A DNA stretch of 60,568 nucleotides, taken from a virus. Positions 4,312-19,914 of this stretch are shown here, piece after piece. A program made the position numbers and the translations under genes. Under the pieces are notes generated by a model that was given only the letters and a program-made list of their open reading frames with translations, made no database searches and had not been told where the DNA came from. The stretch is from the IMG/VR virus record IMGVR_UViG_3300035047_000236. The stretch is one strand, 5' to 3'. Each line of letters opens with the position of its first letter. Position 1 is the stretch's first letter.

Positions 4312-5391
4312 TCAATCCTCCCTAACTATTCTACATGATTTATATATCATATTTATCAACACATGTGATGCAGGTTTTCCTGTCATTAGAATAGGTGTTG
4401 TTATTATATCTAATATAGAAGAATATTTGTCCGCGTCTGAAATTTTCTTCGAAAAAACCAATTTATTTGTAAAAAACCCAGCTAAAGCTATCCTAACTGT
4501 TTCTTCTGGTATGTTTTTTAAATTTTTTACTGTTTTAATTGCGTCCTTAAACTTGCCCATTATAACAGCTTTACCTAAATCCATAATGTTTATATTATCT
4601 TCATCTATTAATTGATTTTCAAGAAGAATTTTTACATTATCTATATCCCAGCTGCCTTCATCTATAACATTTCTAAGATTTATAATAGCTCTTCTTGGTA
4701 TTCCTTTAGAAGCTTCAGATATATATTTAATAACAGATCTATTATAAACTATTCCTTCATAATCACATATATTCATTAGAATAGAATTTAACATATCTGA
4801 AGATACAATTCCAAAATGCATAGGAACGTTTCTATCAATAAAGGCACTGTCTAATTTATTAGGCTCGTCTGTACAAAATATAAAATAAACATGAGAAAAC
4901 CCATCTTCTATTTTTTTCAATAAAAGATCTTGAGCAGTGGATGTAAGTTTGTGTGCTTCATCAAATATTAAAACCTTATTTCTACAGAAAAGGGGGTGGA
5001 AAGAAAGGTTTTTAGTTATCTTATCAACCGCATCTTTTCCACCAGATTTTCCAACATTTATTTCTACTACATCCACATTAGTATTATTAAGGGTGCTTTT
5101 ACAAGCACTACAATTCAAACAAGGCTCTGATGTGGAACCTTTTTCAATTGATTCACAATTCAAACCAAGAGCCAGTATTCTTGCTGCAGTAGTCTTACCA
5201 CACCCAGGAGGGCCTGTGAATAAAGAATTGTGTGGTATATTATTCTTATCTAAATTATTCTTTATTATTTTCTTATTTACATCTTGACCTACCATTTCAT
5301 CTATTAAGCAAGGTCTATATGTAGTTATTAAATCATTGGCACCGTTATCAGTAACCCTTCTTATAAGCATAAAACTTTCCTCCAAAGTCAA
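4312..5391 (-). CDS. dnaX: DNA polymerase III gamma/tau-like clamp loader ATPase
   Basis: YRP..DEMVGQ, Walker A GPPGCGKTT, Zn module C...PCLNCSAC, Walker B DEAH, QDLLLKKIE. Confidence 0.9.
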   Translation of the reverse strand: MTLEESFMLIRRVTDNGANDLITTYRPCLIDEMVGQDVNKKIIKNNLDKNNIPHNSLFTGPPGCGKTTAARILALGLNCESIEKGSTSEPCLNCSACKSTLNNTNVDVVEINVGKSGGKDAVDKITKNLSFHPLFCRNKVLIFDEAHKLTSTAQDLLLKKIEDGFSHVYFIFCTDEPNKLDSAFIDRNVPMHFGIVSSDMLNSILMNICDYEGIVYNRSVIKYISEASKGIPRRAIINLRNVIDEGSWDIDNVKILLENQLIDEDNINIMDLGKAVIMGKFKDAIKTVKNLKNIPEETVRIALAGFFTNKLVFSKKISDADKYSSILDIITTPILMTGKPASHVLINMIYKSCRIVRED

Positions 5392-5888
5392 TTGTTTCTA
5401 ATTCTTTTATCTATTTCACTAATAAGTATATCATACAATTCACACAAAACACCTTGTCCTGGAGCTGTTTCAAAAACATAATTAGATATAGACTTTACTT
5501 GATTAGCTGAATTGTTAGTAGTAAACTTTATTTCCGAATACTTCATACAACTTATATCATCTAATCTGTTACCTATATATAATAAGTCAATAGGACTAAA
5601 TCCATACCTATTCATTATTTTATGTTTAAGTATGTCAAATTTATTTTCTTTATTATTAGAAAAATAGGTAGGTATATTTCTATACCTCATAATATTGTAA
5701 CTGACTGAAGAATCAGAAGAAAGGAAAACAAAAACAAAGTGTTTCTTTAATTCATTTATCACCTCAAAATCAATGTTACAAAAATTCTTAAAAAGAGTAA
5801 AATTCATATGATCTATAAAACTATTACCATCAGTTATAACACCATCTATCTCACTCACTATTATTTTTACATCACTAAAATCTAACAT
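5388..5888 (-). CDS. KdsC-like HAD-family protein with degenerate catalytic motifs
   Basis: IIVSEIDGVITDG, YIGNRLDD and PGQGVLCELYD align by eye to KdsC DVDGVLxDG, YVGDDLID and GGRGAVREVCD. Confidence 0.75.
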   Translation of the reverse strand: MLDFSDVKIIVSEIDGVITDGNSFIDHMNFTLFKNFCNIDFEVINELKKHFVFVFLSSDSSVSYNIMRYRNIPTYFSNNKENKFDILKHKIMNRYGFSPIDLLYIGNRLDDISCMKYSEIKFTTNNSANQVKSISNYVFETAPGQGVLCELYDILISEIDKRIRNN

Positions 5889-5903
5889 AAGTCACCACTT
5901 CTA

Positions 5904-7031
5904 TTAATAATAAAATTTTGTTATACAATTACTAACCTTTCGTACCTCTTTTGAACTTAGATAGGGGTGCATTGGTATTGATAATAAAGTATCGGCTAAC
6001 CCCTCTGCTATATTAAAAGAACCATAGCCGTTGTAAATAGGTTGATTATTGCATGTTATAGGATAATGTAGAGCTGCGCCAATACCATTTTCTTTCAAAA
6101 AGTTAAGCAATTTATTTCTAGTCTCTTTTTCTTCAGTTCTTATTTCATACAAATGATAAACATGATCACACCCCTTGTCAACATGTGGAAGTAAAATATT
6201 TTCATTTATTCTGTATGTTTTATCTTCTGAACAAAGGAAAGATTTATACATTAATGCAACATTCTTTCTTTTATCATTCCATATATCTATATAATTTAAA
6301 CACTCTGTTAAAAATAATGCATTTATTGAATCTAATCTTGAGTTATAACCAACTTTATCATAACCATACCAAGAACCGTCTGTTCTGCCTACATTACCTA
6401 AAGACCTTACATCGTTGGAAATTGATTCTATATTAGTTATTACAGCTCCGCCTTGACCTAAACCACCGAGATTTTTTGCTGGATAAAAAGAAAAACATCC
6501 AGCATGCCCAAATGTTCCCACACTTTTTCCATCTATTTTTGCCCCAATTGCTTGAGCACAATCCTCTATTACATATAAATCATATTTCTTTGCTATTTGC
6601 ATAATTTTTGGCATATAAACAGTATTACCATACAAATGAACAGGGATAATAACTTTAGTTTTATTTGTTATATAACTCTCTACACTTTCATCCATCAAAT
6701 ATGTATCTGGATTAACATCTGAGAACACAACATCTGCACCAACATGTGTAGCTGCTATTGCTGTAGCTATAAATGTATTGGCTGGGACTATAACCTCATC
6801 TCCTGGACCTACTCCTAAAGATCTAAGAGCTAAAATTAAAGCGTCTGTTCCTGATCCTACACCTATAGTGTATCTACAATTATTATAATTAGAAAACTTA
6901 CTTTCAAACTCTTCTAAATAGGGACCTCCAACAAATCCTCCTATTGTTATTAATCCTTTTATTTTCTCCATAATCCAATCAATATTCAACATACTATACT
7001 GTCTTTTCAAATCAACTAAATTTATATTCAT
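5904..7031 (-). CDS. DegT/DnrJ/EryC1/StrS PLP-dependent sugar aminotransferase
   Basis: GSGTDAL, GPGDEVIVPANTFIAT, PVHLYG, IEDCAQA, FSFYPAKNLG (PLP lysine), GYNSRLD. Confidence 0.95.
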   Translation of the reverse strand: MNINLVDLKRQYSMLNIDWIMEKIKGLITIGGFVGGPYLEEFESKFSNYNNCRYTIGVGSGTDALILALRSLGVGPGDEVIVPANTFIATAIAATHVGADVVFSDVNPDTYLMDESVESYITNKTKVIIPVHLYGNTVYMPKIMQIAKKYDLYVIEDCAQAIGAKIDGKSVGTFGHAGCFSFYPAKNLGGLGQGGAVITNIESISNDVRSLGNVGRTDGSWYGYDKVGYNSRLDSINALFLTECLNYIDIWNDKRKNVALMYKSFLCSEDKTYRINENILLPHVDKGCDHVYHLYEIRTEEKETRNKLLNFLKENGIGAALHYPITCNNQPIYNGYGSFNIAEGLADTLLSIPMHPYLSSKEVRKVSNCITKFYY

Positions 7032-7044
7032 TTTTTTTATCTCC

Positions 7045-18513: not shown

Positions 18514-18531
18514 GAAAATTAACTTTAAATA

Positions 18532-18559
18532 AATATAACAACTAAAAATTAAATGTAAA
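18532..18559 (-). promoter_or_regulatory. Sigma70-like promoter
   Basis: TTTACA, 16 nt, TATATT, with TG extension (TGTTATATT). AT-rich context lowers specificity. Confidence 0.45.
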
Positions 18560-18589
18560 TAGGGAAGTATGAAAAATACCTCCCTATTT
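18557..18589 (-). terminator. Probable intrinsic terminator after the GT4 gene
   Basis: Minus-strand RNA AAAUAGGGAGGUAU-UUUUC-AUACUUCCCUAUUU: 14-bp stem with one G-U pair, followed by a U-rich run. Confidence 0.7.
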
Positions 18590-18600
18590 TTTATTAAACT

Positions 18601-19914
18601 CTAGAATTCTTCTACATCTATAGTCTTTTCTTTAGTTTCTACAGTACCAACAGTTTCCTTTAGCCCTTCATAATAAACTTTATTAAACAACTCTATCCAC
18701 TGATCTCCTACAGCACCCTGCCAATTAAACTTATCATGAATCATTTTATATGCTTTGTCAGCTTTTCCAAGAGCTTCGTCATAGTTATTATATATATGTA
18801 CCATCTTATTGACCATATCTTCTACATCCACAAGAGGTCTAATTACTTCATTGTCATGTGGAAGAACTGTATATAAAGAAGGGTGACCTCCGCTTTTACA
18901 TGTGTAACCTATCTCATCAGTAATAAACTCTTTCATCGAAGTGTTGCTTGGCATCAAAACAGGTGTTTTAGTAGCCATAGATTCTACCCAGGACATCCCA
19001 AAACCCTCACCTATAGAAGTACTTACAACCAAATCAGAGGCATTATAAATAAGATTTACCACCTCTCTAGGATAGCCTTGATTAGGACCAAAATTTTCTG
19101 GAAATACTACATCATTATTCATAGTAAAACCAAAAGATTTAATTGTTTCAAGTAAGTTCCATCCTTGATCTTTAGGTGCCATATGTAAATAAAGAATTGA
19201 ATCAGGTACTTTCTTTCTAAACTCTTTGAAAGCCATAATTGTTCTAGGAATGTCTTTTCTATGCTGATTCCTATTAATATTAGTAACAATAAACTTATCA
19301 TGATGGTGACCAAAATACATCTTTCTAAACTTAGCTATATCCTCTTTTGGTAGTGGTTTATAGTCGCTTACATTAGCTCCATGAGGAATTACTAAAGGGT
19401 CTTTACAACCACTATAAACTAGTTTAGACAGGTCTGCACCAAACTTAGTATATGCAACCATGTAGTCAGCACAGCTAACATTCTTTATCCATTGTTCTTT
19501 AGGGAAGCCGTCTATAGGATAATATACTATTGATTTAAACTTTTTTCCACTATCCTTAAGTTTTGATATTAATGGCGGCATAAAATCTAATATAAATGTA
19601 TCCTGTAGAAAAAATAAGATATCATATTCCATGTGCTGTATCATATTGGCTACTTTTTTTCTGCCATAGGGATCTCTATCATTATTAATGCCAGTAGGCC
19701 ATATATTGTATGGAAACTCATGAGGATCTCCCCAATAATTAATACCTAGAATGTCTATTTCATACCTTCCTGTTTTATATAATGCCTCAAATATATTCCT
19801 AGAAACAGTTGAAAAACCAGTTGCACATGTGGGAGCATCAGCGTATGCTAAAACCTTTATCTTCTTACCAGTTGTTTTACTCAATTTTCTTTTACTCATA
19901 CTAATTCCTTTCAT
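18601..19914 (-). CDS. Glycosyltransferase, GT-B fold (GT4-like)
   Basis: TGFSTVS, VIPHG, NRNQHRKDI, YNASDLVVSTSIGEGFGMSWVESMA. Confidence 0.92.
   Translation of the reverse strand: MKGISMSKRKLSKTTGKKIKVLAYADAPTCATGFSTVSRNIFEALYKTGRYEIDILGINYWGDPHEFPYNIWPTGINNDRDPYGRKKVANMIQHMEYDILFFLQDTFILDFMPPLISKLKDSGKKFKSIVYYPIDGFPKEQWIKNVSCADYMVAYTKFGADLSKLVYSGCKDPLVIPHGANVSDYKPLPKEDIAKFRKMYFGHHHDKFIVTNINRNQHRKDIPRTIMAFKEFRKKVPDSILYLHMAPKDQGWNLLETIKSFGFTMNNDVVFPENFGPNQGYPREVVNLIYNASDLVVSTSIGEGFGMSWVESMATKTPVLMPSNTSMKEFITDEIGYTCKSGGHPSLYTVLPHDNEVIRPLVDVEDMVNKMVHIYNNYDEALGKADKAYKMIHDKFNWQGAVGDQWIELFNKVYYEGLKETVGTVETKEKTIDVEEF

What the first reader, a model, noticed from the sequence alone, without database searches (positions are those of the whole stretch)
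5388..19914. ~14.5-kb phage glycan-synthesis cluster embedded in the replication region: candidate DNA hypermodification or virion glycosylation system
Seen: three GT2-like and two GT4-like transferases, oxidoreductase, PLP aminotransferase, two acyltransferases, methyltransferase, sulfotransferase, KdsC-like protein and a thymidylate-synthase homolog, co-oriented between ruvC/recB-like genes and dnaX/polA/dut/nrdJ. I see no flippase, polymerase, priming transferase or multi-pass membrane protein. Inference: the acceptor is cytoplasmic (phage DNA or virion proteins), not host O-antigen, and the product is a multi-sugar, acylated, methylated and possibly sulfated glycan.
Basis: partly seen in the sequence, partly recalled or inferred. 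Interest (0 to 1): 0.85.

Follow-up and report, generated by a model that had tools for sequence, protein, structure and literature searches.

The report
Hypervariable glycan island in a phage
An uncultured large phage from oil-field and sediment samples carries an intact 14.5-kb set of soluble sugar-building enzymes that recurs, with changing content, at the same place in a whole phage lineage. It most likely sugar-coats a phage protein rather than the DNA, because the thymidylate-synthase gene inside it looks like an ordinary one.

Summary
The gene inventory is confirmed: two GT4 and three GT2 transferases, a GFO-type dehydrogenase, a DegT aminotransferase, two hexapeptide acyltransferases, a SAM methyltransferase, a sulfotransferase-fold protein, a KdsC-like protein and a ThyA homolog. 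All are intact, and none has a predicted membrane segment.

At least 12 related IMG/VR contigs have the same layout. A conserved GT4 pair, usually with the methyltransferase, sits after RuvC and the PD-(D/E)XK nuclease. A KdsC-like gene sits before DnaX and PolA. The sugar genes between them vary: epimerases, dehydratases, GT2s, methyl-, acyl- and sulfotransferases, radical SAM enzymes. None of 129 island proteins is multi-pass.

The ThyA homolog does not point to DNA hypermodification:
- It is 64-70% identical to the only thymidylate synthase of Desulfobacterales genomes.
- It keeps Asn177 and Asp169.
- In relatives it is replaced by a ThyX-like gene or by nothing.

No TET/JBP, ParB or dNMP kinase was found, and palindromes are avoided. 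The closest cultured-phage homologs of the large GT4 mostly lie beside capsid, portal or tail genes, and its best fold match is a chlorovirus transferase.

My odds for the acceptor: phage (virion) protein about 0.45, host lipid-linked glycan about 0.22, DNA about 0.2. No acceptor is shown. Other findings of this scan touch parts of this stretch.

The parts
18601..19914 (-). GT4_437: the large GT-B/GT4 glycosyltransferase, conserved anchor 1 of the island
   Evidence: It matches Pfam Glycos_transf_1 and GT4-conflict and phrog_2170 at 7.6e-53. Related contigs hold it at 47-91% identity in the same position. The AF2 model has pLDDT 85. Its best PDB match is chlorovirus NY-2A B736L, 3OY2, E 1.4e-22.
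18277..18513 (-). orf78, unknown
   Evidence: No Pfam, PHROG or NCBIfam hit.
17382..18206 (-). ThyA-type thymidylate synthase, not judged part of the glycan pathway; it occupies a facultative slot between the two GT4 genes
   Evidence: It matches PF00303 and TIGR03283. It has 6937 homologs and is 64-70% identical to chromosomal genes of Desulfobacterales. That gene is the sole thymidylate synthase in 3 of 5 genomes tested. PPC, RSWD and FPANL are retained.
17046..17366 (-). orf106, unknown
   Evidence: No family hit. It is partly replaced in sibling strains (joint 17201->17368).
15925..17043 (-). GT4_372: second GT4 glycosyltransferase, conserved anchor 2
   Evidence: It matches phrog_2170 at 1.1e-22, with weak Pfam GT4 hits. 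Relatives hold it at 47-63% identity, always next to GT4_437 or separated from it by a thymidylate-synthase gene.
15633..15893 (-). orf86, unknown small protein
   Evidence: No family hit. Conserved at 41% identity in L107 at the same position.
14908..15507 (-). Class-I SAM methyltransferase (probable true start at 15420), usually conserved with the GT4 pair
   Evidence: It matches Methyltransf_11 and Methyltransf_25. It is 47-59% identical over about 170 aa in L013, L101, L105, L107, L110 and L120, with only a 44-aa fragment (57%) matched in L108. Sequence.
14276..14911 (-). GT2 glycosyltransferase c
   Evidence: It matches Glycos_transf_2. It is 56-61% identical in L107, L108 and L120.
13251..14261 (-). 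GFO/IDH/MocA sugar-nucleotide 3-dehydrogenase (GnnA/WbpB-like)
   Evidence: Pfam hits. The best NCBIfam hit is UDP-GlcNAc 3-dehydrogenase at 7.6e-49, below the curated cut-off. The best PDB hit is 7bvj.
12379..13251 (-). GT2 glycosyltransferase b
   Evidence: It matches Glycos_transf_2 at 2.8e-17. It is 64-65% identical in L107 and L108.
11325..12353 (-). GT2 glycosyltransferase a
   Evidence: It matches Glycos_transf_2. It is 62% identical in L107 and 41% in L120.
10688..11323 (-). Hexapeptide N-acetyltransferase of 3-amino sugars (QdtC/WlbB-like)
   Evidence: It matches Hexapep. The best PDB hits are QdtC 3fs8 at 2.2e-26 and WlbB 3mqg at 2.3e-20.
8337..10683 (-). Selfish insertion, not part of the pathway: an HNH/NUMOD3 homing endonuclease split by a TnpB (IS605-type) element
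   Evidence: The pieces match HNH, Cas12f1-like_TNB/OrfB_IS605 and NUMOD3. A sibling strain has 502 other letters in place of 8258-11112. Depth over the element is raised in run X5.
7834..8349 (-). Second hexapeptide acyltransferase (NeuD/PglB/VioB-like)
   Evidence: It matches Hexapep and TIGR03570. It is 75-85% identical in L107 and L108.
7045..7818 (-). Sulfotransferase-fold protein with an atypical PAPS loop
   Evidence: It matches Sulfotransfer_3 and Sulfotransfer_1. The loop reads GSSICGTT, while the RDGRDV motif is kept.
5904..7031 (-). DegT-family PLP sugar 3-aminotransferase (QdtB/WbpE-like)
   Evidence: It matches DegT_DnrJ_EryC1 at 1.3e-97. PDB hits are QdtB at 5.7e-77 and WbpE at about 1e-59.
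5388..5888 (-). KdsC-like HAD-fold protein, conserved boundary gene next to DnaX; the nucleophile Asp is replaced by Glu
   Evidence: It matches Hydrolase_3, and KDN-9-P phosphatase and KdsC models far below their cut-offs. It is present next to DnaX in L101, L110 and L117-L121. The ExDG motif occurs in all 7 sequences.
19901..20773 (-). CapR-HNH homing endonuclease at the island's upstream edge (selfish, facultative)
   Evidence: It matches CapR and HNH and phrog_681 and phrog_559. It is absent in sibling strains (joint 19908->20768) and in L014 and L015.

Best explanation
The stretch is a functional, lineage-conserved glycan island inside the replication-gene block of an uncultured phage of about 190-240 kb from anoxic oil-field and sediment habitats.

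Anchors. Two soluble GT4 transferases (GT4_437 and GT4_372), usually with a small SAM methyltransferase, form the constant part.

Variable cassette. Between this anchor and a KdsC-like gene next to DnaX lies a freely exchangeable set of sugar-nucleotide tailoring enzymes and further transferases. In this phage the predicted steps are:
1. A GnnA/WbpB-like dehydrogenase turns host UDP-GlcNAc into the 3-keto sugar.
2. A QdtB/WbpE-like aminotransferase makes the 3-amino sugar.
3. A QdtC/WlbB-like enzyme N-acetylates it, giving a 2,3-diacetamido-type donor.
4. Three GT2 enzymes, a second acyltransferase and perhaps a sulfotransferase extend and decorate the chain.

Acceptor. All steps are cytoplasmic. 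The most likely acceptor is a phage-encoded protein, probably a virion component, as in mycobacteriophage and giant-virus self-glycosylation. The changing cassette would give each phage line a different surface glycan.

Thymidylate synthase. The gene between the GT4 genes is an ordinary dTMP synthase sitting in an insertion-prone slot. It is not part of the pathway.

Shown: gene content, intactness, conservation, variability, solubility, and the ordinary character of the thymidylate synthase. Inferred: the identity of the sugar. Unproven: the acceptor.
For: Lineage-wide layout. The order is DnaB, primase, RuvC, PD-(D/E)XK, GT4_437, then ThyX-like or ThyA or nothing, then GT4_372, MTase, a variable set, HAD, DnaX, PolA. 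It occurs in L013, L101-L108, L110 and L117-L121.

Variable content. Relatives carry GT2, methyltransferases, hexapeptide transferases, SDR epimerases and dehydratases, GFO enzymes, UDP-GlcNAc 2-epimerase, sulfotransferases and radical SAM enzymes. None of the 129 proteins is multi-pass.

Homologs of GT4_437 in cultured phages:
- right after the major capsid gene in Microcystis phage Mae-JY09
- between the portal and the head protease, with a second GT and a methyltransferase, in Synechococcus phage S-CBS4
- between the tail terminator and the tail chaperones in Arthrobacter phage Kitkat
- upstream of the terminase, with sugar genes, in Tetrasphaera phage TJE1

Fold. The best PDB match is the chlorovirus NY-2A transferase B736L. 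T4 alpha- and beta-GT are not among the top 50, and there is no Pfam hit to those families.

The thymidylate synthase is ordinary. It alternates with a ThyX-like gene. Four relatives have nothing between the GT4 genes.

Palindromic 4-mers and 6-mers are depleted, with median O/E 0.74 and 0.87 against 1.00 (p 1e-6 and 1e-3). This fits DNA that is exposed to restriction enzymes.

The sugar pathway is assigned. The island has the same GC content and skew as its flanks. The same island type is present nearly intact in an independent sediment study.
Against: - No acceptor is identified and no virion protein was examined.
- In this lineage the island lies among replication genes, not in the structural operon as in the mycobacteriophage clusters.
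- One cultured homolog (S-EIVl) lies next to a primase.
- B736L's own acceptor is unknown (PMC9614988).
- GT4 folds like BshA and MshA also describe the known DNA-acting GT-B enzymes (bioRxiv 10.1101/2023.12.21.572611).
- Inteins in both GT4 genes of relatives are otherwise typical of DNA-metabolism genes.
- Palindrome avoidance is indirect evidence.
- The KdsC-like protein and the sulfotransferase have atypical catalytic motifs, so parts of the predicted chemistry may not hold.
Confidence: 0.45

Rival explanations
1. DNA hypermodification. The GT4 pair and the GT2 enzymes build a glycan on a base of the phage DNA. The hydroxyl handle would come from an enzyme not yet recognised.
For: - The island lies in the replication and recombination block, next to PolA, DnaX, RuvC and a thymidylate-synthase slot.
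- Both GT4 proteins hit Pfam GT4-conflict: GT4_437 above the cut-off and GT4_372 below it (21.4 bits against 26).
- Known DNA-acting GT-B enzymes also resemble BshA, MshA and PglH, and are often near ThyS, polymerases and clamps (bioRxiv 10.1101/2023.12.21.572611).
- Thymidylate-synthase homologs do make handles for glycans in other phages (PMC13326640).
- The ThyX-like gene of relatives has a diverged RHR motif and could have a new activity.
- Both GT4 genes carry inteins in relatives.
- Island variability could reflect an arms race with restriction systems.
Against: - The ThyA homolog keeps Asn177 and Asp169 and is 64-70% identical to the sole thymidylate synthase of free-living bacteria. 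The Asp at position 143 is shared by those cellular enzymes.
- The gene in this slot is ThyA-type, ThyX-like or missing, while the GT4 pair stays.
- No TET/JBP, ParB, dNMP kinase or base-flipping DNA GT family was found in the window.
- The C5 DNA methylase seen in L107 is paired with an HNH nuclease-like protein, like a restriction-modification cassette.
- The habitat is anoxic, which makes O2-dependent hydroxylases unlikely.
- Palindromes are avoided.
- Five transferases plus acyl, methyl and sulfate groups exceed any known DNA glycan.
Confidence: 0.2
2. Host envelope remodelling. The soluble enzymes work on host undecaprenyl-linked intermediates or on the LPS core, and rely on the host's priming transferase and exporter. 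The changed cell surface would block superinfection or phage loss on debris.
For: - The enzyme families are those of O-antigen and capsule loci.
- GT2 and GT4 enzymes of such pathways are peripheral and need no membrane segment.
- A GT4 pair with a methyltransferase recalls ABC-transporter-type O-polysaccharide synthesis, which has a methyl terminator (this comparison is from my own knowledge).
- This is the usual reading of glycosyltransferase-rich variable islands in pelagimyophages (PMC7029224).
- The boundary gene has a KdsC-like fold.
Against: - None of 129 proteins in 13 islands is a priming transferase, flippase, ABC transporter, polymerase or ligase.
- The constant GT4 pair would need a constant host acceptor across a deeply diverged lineage.
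- The closest cultured-phage homologs sit among head and tail genes.
- The KdsC-like protein lacks the nucleophile Asp.
Confidence: 0.22
3. Another soluble product. The island could make a free cytoplasmic methylated oligo- or polysaccharide or a glycosylated small molecule, or it could mainly drain host UDP-GlcNAc.
For: Fold matches include the methylmannose-polysaccharide mannosyltransferase 7qsg and the small-molecule transferases BshA and MshA. The methyltransferase is conserved beside GT4_372.
Against: There is no obvious benefit to a lytic phage. A hypervariable cassette fits an exposed antigen better than an internal metabolite. No supporting precedent in phages was found in the papers searched.
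Confidence: 0.08

Closest known systems
Mycobacteriophage virion glycosylation clusters (Freeman et al. 2023, cited in PMC12619734; the paper itself is not held)
   Same: The phage encodes soluble glycosyltransferases, and reportedly methyltransferases, that put glycans on its own capsid and tail-tube proteins in the cytoplasm. Distant relatives of GT4_437 in actinophages and cyanophages lie in the same kind of structural neighbourhood.
   Different: Here the genes lie in the replication block. The island is far larger and has its own amino-sugar pathway, a second acyltransferase and a sulfotransferase fold. No glycosylated protein is known. There is no detectable sequence match to mycobacteriophage genes.
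Autonomous glycosylation of giant viruses (chlorovirus capsid N-glycans, clade-specific Megavirinae clusters; PMC9614988)
   Same: The virus encodes cytoplasmic GT-A and GT-B transferases, sugar-nucleotide tailoring and methylation. Cluster content differs between clades. The best structural match of GT4_437 is chlorovirus NY-2A B736L.
   Different: Those are eukaryotic viruses. B736L has no known acceptor. Sequence identity is only 18%.
Phage DNA glycan hypermodification clusters (T4 alpha/beta-GT; arabinosyl-5-hydroxycytosine of RB69/DLP3, PMC13326640; 5mYOX/C5-MT/GT clusters, bioRxiv 10.1101/2023.12.21.572611)
   Same: Transferases and sugar-tailoring genes lie near replication genes and a thymidylate-synthase homolog. 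Some of the known enzymes are GT-B proteins resembling BshA and MshA.
   Different: The thymidylate-synthase homolog lacks the N177D and D169N signatures and is dispensable at this site. No 5mYOX, ParB or dNMP kinase is present. The glycan machinery is much more elaborate.
Host recognition cluster and LPS-like auxiliary genes of pelagimyophages and cyanomyophages (PMC7029224)
   Same: Both are large, non-syntenic, glycosyltransferase-rich islands at a fixed place in an otherwise syntenic large-phage genome, with the acceptor unproven.
   Different: Those islands lie within tail-fibre genes and are dominated by GT8. This one lies in the replication block and is anchored by a conserved GT4 pair.
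WbpB/WbpE/WbpD and GnnA/GnnB pathways to 3-amino and 3-acetamido sugars
   Same: The same three enzyme classes are present, and their best matches are those enzymes or their dTDP-sugar counterparts QdtB and QdtC.
   Different: All NCBIfam scores are below the curated cut-offs. The nucleotide carrier and the 6-position (GlcNAc, GlcNAcA or 6-deoxy) are not determined.

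Membership tests
Phage DNA glycosyl hypermodification system | A base-activating enzyme: either a thymidylate-synthase homolog with altered specificity (N177D for dCMP, L143D/E for hydroxymethyl, D169N for 5-hydroxy-dCMP), or a 5mYOX/TET enzyme with a C5 methylase | tested here: not met
   Asn177 and Asp169 are kept. Asp at position 143 is shared by the cellular sole-TS orthologs (criteria). No TET/JBP or C5 methylase lies in the window. The Tet_JBP genome search was uninformative because no control matched.
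Phage DNA glycosyl hypermodification system | A transferase of a family known to act on DNA (T4 alpha-GT, T4 beta-GT, or the JGT-like GT-A class) | tested here: inconclusive
   There is no Pfam hit to the T4 GT families, and T4 beta-GT is not in the top 50 fold matches. However, the known DNA GT-B enzymes also resemble BshA and MshA.
Phage DNA glycosyl hypermodification system | Companion genes: a ParB-like partner, a dNMP kinase or a dCTPase | tested here: not met
   None was found in the 60-kb window. The rest of the genome was not available.
Phage DNA glycosyl hypermodification system | A modified base in the virion DNA | not testable with these tools
   Only assembled contigs are on hand, with no raw signal. 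Palindrome avoidance argues weakly against global protection.
Phage or viral self-glycosylation of virion proteins | Virus-encoded soluble transferases without lipid-carrier machinery | tested here: met
Phage or viral self-glycosylation of virion proteins | Transferase genes embedded in the head or tail morphogenesis operon | tested here: not met
   In this lineage they lie between PD-(D/E)XK and DnaX. The feature is met only by homologs in S-CBS4, Mae-JY09 and Kitkat.
Phage or viral self-glycosylation of virion proteins | A glycan detected on a virion protein | not testable with these tools
   There is no isolate and no proteomic data.
Bacterial O-antigen or capsule locus (including a decaying captured fragment) | A priming phosphoglycosyl transferase, a flippase or ABC exporter, and a polymerase or ligase | tested here: not met
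   None occurs among the window ORFs or the 129 island ORFs of relatives. There are no multi-pass proteins.
Bacterial O-antigen or capsule locus (including a decaying captured fragment) | Signs of decay or recent capture, such as broken frames or foreign composition | tested here: not met
   All genes are full length against their homologs. GC content and skew match the flanks, apart from the TnpB element.
3-acetamido-sugar pathway (WbpB/E/D, GnnA/B, QdtB/C type) | A 3-dehydrogenase, a PLP 3-aminotransferase and an LbH N-acetyltransferase together | tested here: met
   The best matches are UDP-GlcNAc 3-dehydrogenase, QdtB/WbpE/DesV-type aminotransferases and QdtC/WlbB. This rests on similarity only, because the scores are below the equivalog cut-offs.
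Thymidylate synthase ThyA (dTMP synthase) | The catalytic Cys, the RSxD Asp and the dUMP-specifying Asn, plus orthology to an enzyme that must make dTMP | tested here: met
   PPC, RSWD and FPANL are present. The protein is 64-70% identical to the only PF00303 hit in genomes that lack ThyX, including Desulfospira joergensenii DSM 10085.
KdsC / HAD phosphatase | The motif I DxD with a nucleophilic Asp | tested here: not met
   The motif reads ExDG in the window and in six relatives. Scores are far below the KdsC and KDN-9-P phosphatase cut-offs.

The most novel reading that the evidence does not exclude
The conserved GT4 pair writes a complex glycan, with acetamido, methyl and possibly sulfate groups, onto the DNA of an anaerobe-infecting phage lineage. 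The handle would come from an unrecognised, oxygen-independent route. One candidate is the diverged ThyX-like enzyme found between the GT4 genes in most relatives, with some other means in the ThyA-bearing phages. This would be a new class of DNA hypermodification.
Probability: 0.15. Interest if true: 0.9.

Novelty: new variant of a known kind. Interest (0 to 1): 0.55.

Why it matters
Phage-encoded glycosylation is known from a few cases: glucosylated or arabinosylated DNA, mycobacteriophage capsids, and seroconverting prophages. Most glycosyltransferase islands in uncultured phages are assigned by guesswork.

This case adds three things:
- It separates a constant anchor (two soluble GT4 enzymes, intein-ridden in relatives) from a freely swapped sugar-tailoring cassette, across a whole lineage of large phages from anoxic habitats.
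- It shows that a neighbouring thymidylate-synthase homolog, a popular marker for DNA hypermodification, can be a false lead.
- It names concrete, testable enzymes.

If the acceptor is a virion protein, tailed phages would have clade-variable self-made surface glycans like those of giant viruses. That would bear on host recognition, particle stability and immune recognition of phages.

Tried and rejected
- Megablast of the stretch against cultured phages gave no match. PolA has no close cultured relative, at most 33% identity.
The rest of this phage's genome, including its capsid genes, could not be examined.
- The Tet_JBP (PF12851) search of five related contigs found nothing, but no control genome matched either, so the result is uninformative.
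- A profile search of the PDB with the ThyX-like family found nothing. Its ThyX relationship rests on weak Pfam hits.
- The BFVD fold search returned only generic viral GT4 proteins and did not discriminate between acceptors.
- I first took the Asp at the position of E. coli Leu143 as a sign of a hydroxymethylase. I dropped this because the cellular sole-TS orthologs share it.
- I first suspected that the C5 DNA methylase in L107 was part of a 5mC-to-5hmC route. Its neighbour looks like an HNH nuclease, which fits a restriction-modification cassette.
- There are no tRNA genes in the window. No RNA holder is listed among the sequencing runs. All runs are contigs, so neither modification signals nor expression could be read.
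- The Freeman 2023 and Cell Reports 2024 papers are not held. I used the bioRxiv version of the latter. Searches for 'GT4-conflict' and for sulfotransferase-bearing phage glycan clusters found nothing relevant.

Full report
**1. What is in the stretch**

The window has about 30% GC, and every ORF of note lies on the minus strand.
- a KdsC-like HAD protein (5388-5888)
- a DegT aminotransferase (5904-7031)
- a sulfotransferase-fold protein (7045-7818)
- two hexapeptide acyltransferases (7834-8349 and 10688-11323)
- three GT2 enzymes (11325-12353, 12379-13251 and 14276-14911)
- a GFO/IDH/MocA oxidoreductase (13251-14261)
- a class-I SAM methyltransferase (14908-15507)
- two GT4 enzymes (15925-17043 and 18601-19914)
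- a thymidylate-synthase homolog (17382-18206) between the two GT4 genes

The flanks are RuvC and a PD-(D/E)XK nuclease on one side. DnaX, PolA, dUTPase and an intein-bearing ribonucleotide reductase lie on the other. Further along are DnaB, primase, DnaJ, RecA and DnaN, then very large lectin-domain and tail-like proteins.

A hydropathy scan finds no credible membrane segment.

An HNH/NUMOD3 endonuclease is split by a TnpB element (8337-10683), and a CapR-HNH endonuclease sits at 19901-20773. Contigs of sibling strains from other metagenomes skip both (joints 8258->11112 and 19908->20768).

**2. The island belongs to a whole phage lineage**

Searches of IMG/VR with the TS homolog, both GT4 proteins and DnaX brought in related contigs. 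I mapped the window's proteins on them. At least twelve contigs, 37-92% identical in replication proteins, share one order:
1. DnaB, primase, (DnaJ), RuvC, PD-(D/E)XK
2. GT4_437
3. an optional gene
4. GT4_372, usually followed by the methyltransferase
5. a variable block
6. the KdsC-like gene, then DnaX, PolA, dUTPase, RNR

Some relatives (L107, L108, L120) carry this window's cassette at 55-85% identity. Others carry quite different genes. L013, for example, has UDP-GlcNAc 2-epimerase, a DXD transferase, GT2, a Caps_synth-like protein, another methyltransferase and a canonical sulfotransferase.

I ran a Pfam tally over 129 island ORFs from 13 contigs. It gives GT2 (14), several methyltransferase families, hexapeptide transferases (9), SDR epimerases and dehydratases, GFO enzymes (6), UDP-GlcNAc 2-epimerase (4), sulfotransferases and radical SAM enzymes. 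None of the 129 has two credible membrane segments; the one double hit is the aminotransferase.

The genes here are full length against their homologs. Their composition matches the flanks, apart from the TnpB element. The stretch is therefore an intact, selected module and not a decaying host fragment.

The DNA occurs in oil-field metagenomes. A close variant of the same island occurs in an independent sediment study.

**3. The thymidylate-synthase homolog**

The DNA reading hangs on this gene. The evidence is that it is an ordinary thymidylate synthase:
- It belongs to a very large family of 6937 proteins.
- Its nearest members, at 64-70% identity, are chromosomal genes of Desulfobacterales, Spirochaetota and others. 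One is in the isolate Desulfospira joergensenii DSM 10085.
- In three of five such genomes it is the only PF00303 match and there is no ThyX, so it must supply dTMP there.
- It was checked against the residue criteria of Lee et al. 2026 (PMC13326640). It keeps the catalytic Cys, Asn177 (dUMP rather than dCMP) and Asp169, which is Asn in 5-hydroxy-dCMP synthases.
- It has Asp where E. coli has Leu143, but so do all the cellular orthologs. That residue is therefore not diagnostic in this clade.

In most relatives the slot between the GT4 genes holds a different gene. This is a roughly 200-aa protein that proves to be a diverged ThyX homolog:
- L107 matches PF02511 at 26.3 bits, above the cut-off.
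- Many family members carry precomputed Thy1 hits, and one is named FAD-dependent thymidylate synthase.

Across five large contigs the two types exclude each other. Four have the ThyX-like gene and no ThyA. One has ThyA elsewhere and no ThyX-like gene. In L102, L103, L104 and L106 the GT4 genes are directly adjacent.

Other viral contigs carry the same ThyA type without any of these transferases. One of them is a complete 46-kb phage in which it lies next to dUTPase.

The simplest reading is analogous replacement of two dTMP synthases in an insertion-prone slot.

**4. What the enzymes probably make**

- The oxidoreductase best matches UDP-GlcNAc 3-dehydrogenase and PDB 7bvj. From memory, 7bvj is GnnA.
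- The aminotransferase best matches the 3-aminotransferases QdtB, DesV-type enzymes and WbpE.
- The larger hexapeptide protein best matches QdtC and WlbB, which N-acetylate 3-amino sugars.

Together they predict a 2-acetamido-3-acetamido (or other 3-acylamido) sugar nucleotide made from the host's UDP-GlcNAc. The five transferases, the second acyltransferase and the methyltransferase predict a decorated oligosaccharide.

Two parts are doubtful. The sulfotransferase lacks the basic residue of the PAPS loop, whereas relatives have canonical loops. The KdsC-like protein has Glu for the nucleophile Asp in all seven lineage members.

**5. Which acceptor?**

For a phage protein:
- The closest cultured-phage homologs of GT4_437 are 27-39% identical over most of its length.
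- One lies directly after the major capsid gene, in Mae-JY09.
- One lies between the portal and the head protease, with a second transferase and a methyltransferase, in S-CBS4.
- One lies ahead of the terminase, with sugar-activation genes, in TJE1.
- A more distant one lies between the tail terminator and the tail chaperones, in Kitkat.
- One lies by a primase, in S-EIVl, which does not fit this pattern.
- The AF2 model (pLDDT 85) matches the chlorovirus NY-2A transferase B736L best, at E 1.4e-22. That is five orders of magnitude better than BshA. Chloroviruses glycosylate their capsid with their own cytoplasmic enzymes, though B736L's acceptor is unknown (PMC9614988).
- A hypervariable cassette with methyl, acyl and sulfate decoration is what one expects of an exposed antigen.

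Against DNA:
- No base-activating enzyme, ParB, dNMP kinase or known DNA-GT family is present.
- The habitat is anoxic.
- Palindromic 4-mers and 6-mers are clearly depleted. Median O/E is 0.74 and 0.87, against 1.00 for other words (p 1e-6 and 1e-3). Such depletion is typical of DNA that restriction enzymes can see.

For DNA:
- The island lies in the replication block.
- It hits the GT4-conflict family.
- Known DNA-acting GT-B enzymes also look like BshA and MshA, and often neighbour ThyS and polymerases.

For the host envelope:
- The enzyme families fit, and peripheral transferases can use host lipid-linked acceptors. This is the usual reading of similar islands in pelagimyophages (PMC7029224).
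- Against it, no island in the lineage carries a single membrane step.

My odds are phage protein 0.45, host lipid-linked glycan 0.22, DNA 0.20 and other 0.08; the remainder is left unassigned.

**6. Comparison and novelty**

The module works like virus self-glycosylation systems or like phage auxiliary glycan islands. It fails the tested defining features of DNA hypermodification clusters and of complete O-antigen loci.

I found no description of this lineage or of a GT4-anchored variable island in a replication block in the papers searched. I rate it a new variant of a known kind. The interest is moderate because the acceptor remains open.

Other notes of this scan on the same window cover the thymidylate-synthase homolog, the amino-sugar trio, the sulfotransferase loop and the IS605/HNH nesting. 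I checked the first three myself, and partly the last.

Noticed in passing
L104:8570-9532, L105:7728-8948, L110:6625-7848 (GT4_437); L108:10343-11416, L106:11621-12715, L105:10805-12115 and 12239-13375, L110:10514-11599 and 11888-13078 (GT4_372); L010:10547-11620 (ThyA): In relatives both GT4 genes and the ThyA gene are interrupted by in-frame, stop-free insertions of 963-1311 bp. Three of the ten (L110 in GT4_437; L108 and L110 in GT4_372) begin with Cys at the mapped junction (CLHG..., CYDE...). They look like inteins, at about two sites in GT4_437 and three in GT4_372. Inteins in glycosyltransferases are unusual and mark these genes as conserved core genes of the lineage.
   Followed up: partly
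L107:16165-18619: One relative has a C5 cytosine DNA methylase (PF00145, 4.9e-44) and a 436-aa protein that resembles HNH endonucleases. They lie at the spot between the two hexapeptide genes where this window has the HNH/TnpB insertion. This is probably a restriction-modification cassette, and the spot is a hot spot for selfish DNA.
   Followed up: partly
window 5388-5888 and its homologs next to DnaX in L101, L110, L117, L119, L120, L121: The KdsC-like HAD protein has Glu instead of the nucleophile Asp of motif I (S-E-[IV]-D-G) in all seven sequences. It is a conserved but probably non-canonical phosphatase fold.
   Followed up: partly
L013:12308-12904, L101:9367-9978, L105:9429-10001, L107:9260-9862, L108:9264-9827: A roughly 200-aa diverged ThyX homolog, whose RHR motif reads T-Y-R, lies between the two GT4 genes in most relatives. 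The family has about 4800 members, mostly on phage-like contigs. Whether it still makes dTMP is untested.
   Followed up: partly
window 8568-10086: Contig depth over the TnpB element is 10-20 times that of its flanks in one oil-field run. The element, or close copies of it, therefore sits in other, more abundant genomes of that community.
   Followed up: no
window 19901-20773: The CapR-HNH endonuclease gene is present in some near-identical strains and absent in others, and it recurs at several other places in relatives (for example four copies in L117). It is an actively homing endonuclease family.
   Followed up: partly
window, whole: Palindromic 4-mers are depleted: ACGT 0.47, CTAG 0.57, TCGA 0.59, GTAC 0.61 and GGCC 0.62 of expectation. 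This is a restriction-avoidance signature.
   Followed up: yes
window 17382-18206: The nearest cellular relatives of the phage ThyA are Desulfobacterales (Desulfobacula, Desulfobacter, Desulfospira). This fits the oil-field and sediment habitat and may hint at the host range or the gene's donor. The phage's 30% GC is much lower than I recall for those bacteria.
   Followed up: no
window 43385-56308: A 4307-aa protein carries F5/8 type C, laminin-G/concanavalin-like and pentraxin-like domains. It is a giant lectin-like, probably fibre or surface, protein just upstream of the replication block.
   Followed up: no
window 2-1912: The ribonucleotide reductase carries a Hint plus LAGLIDADG intein.
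   Followed up: no
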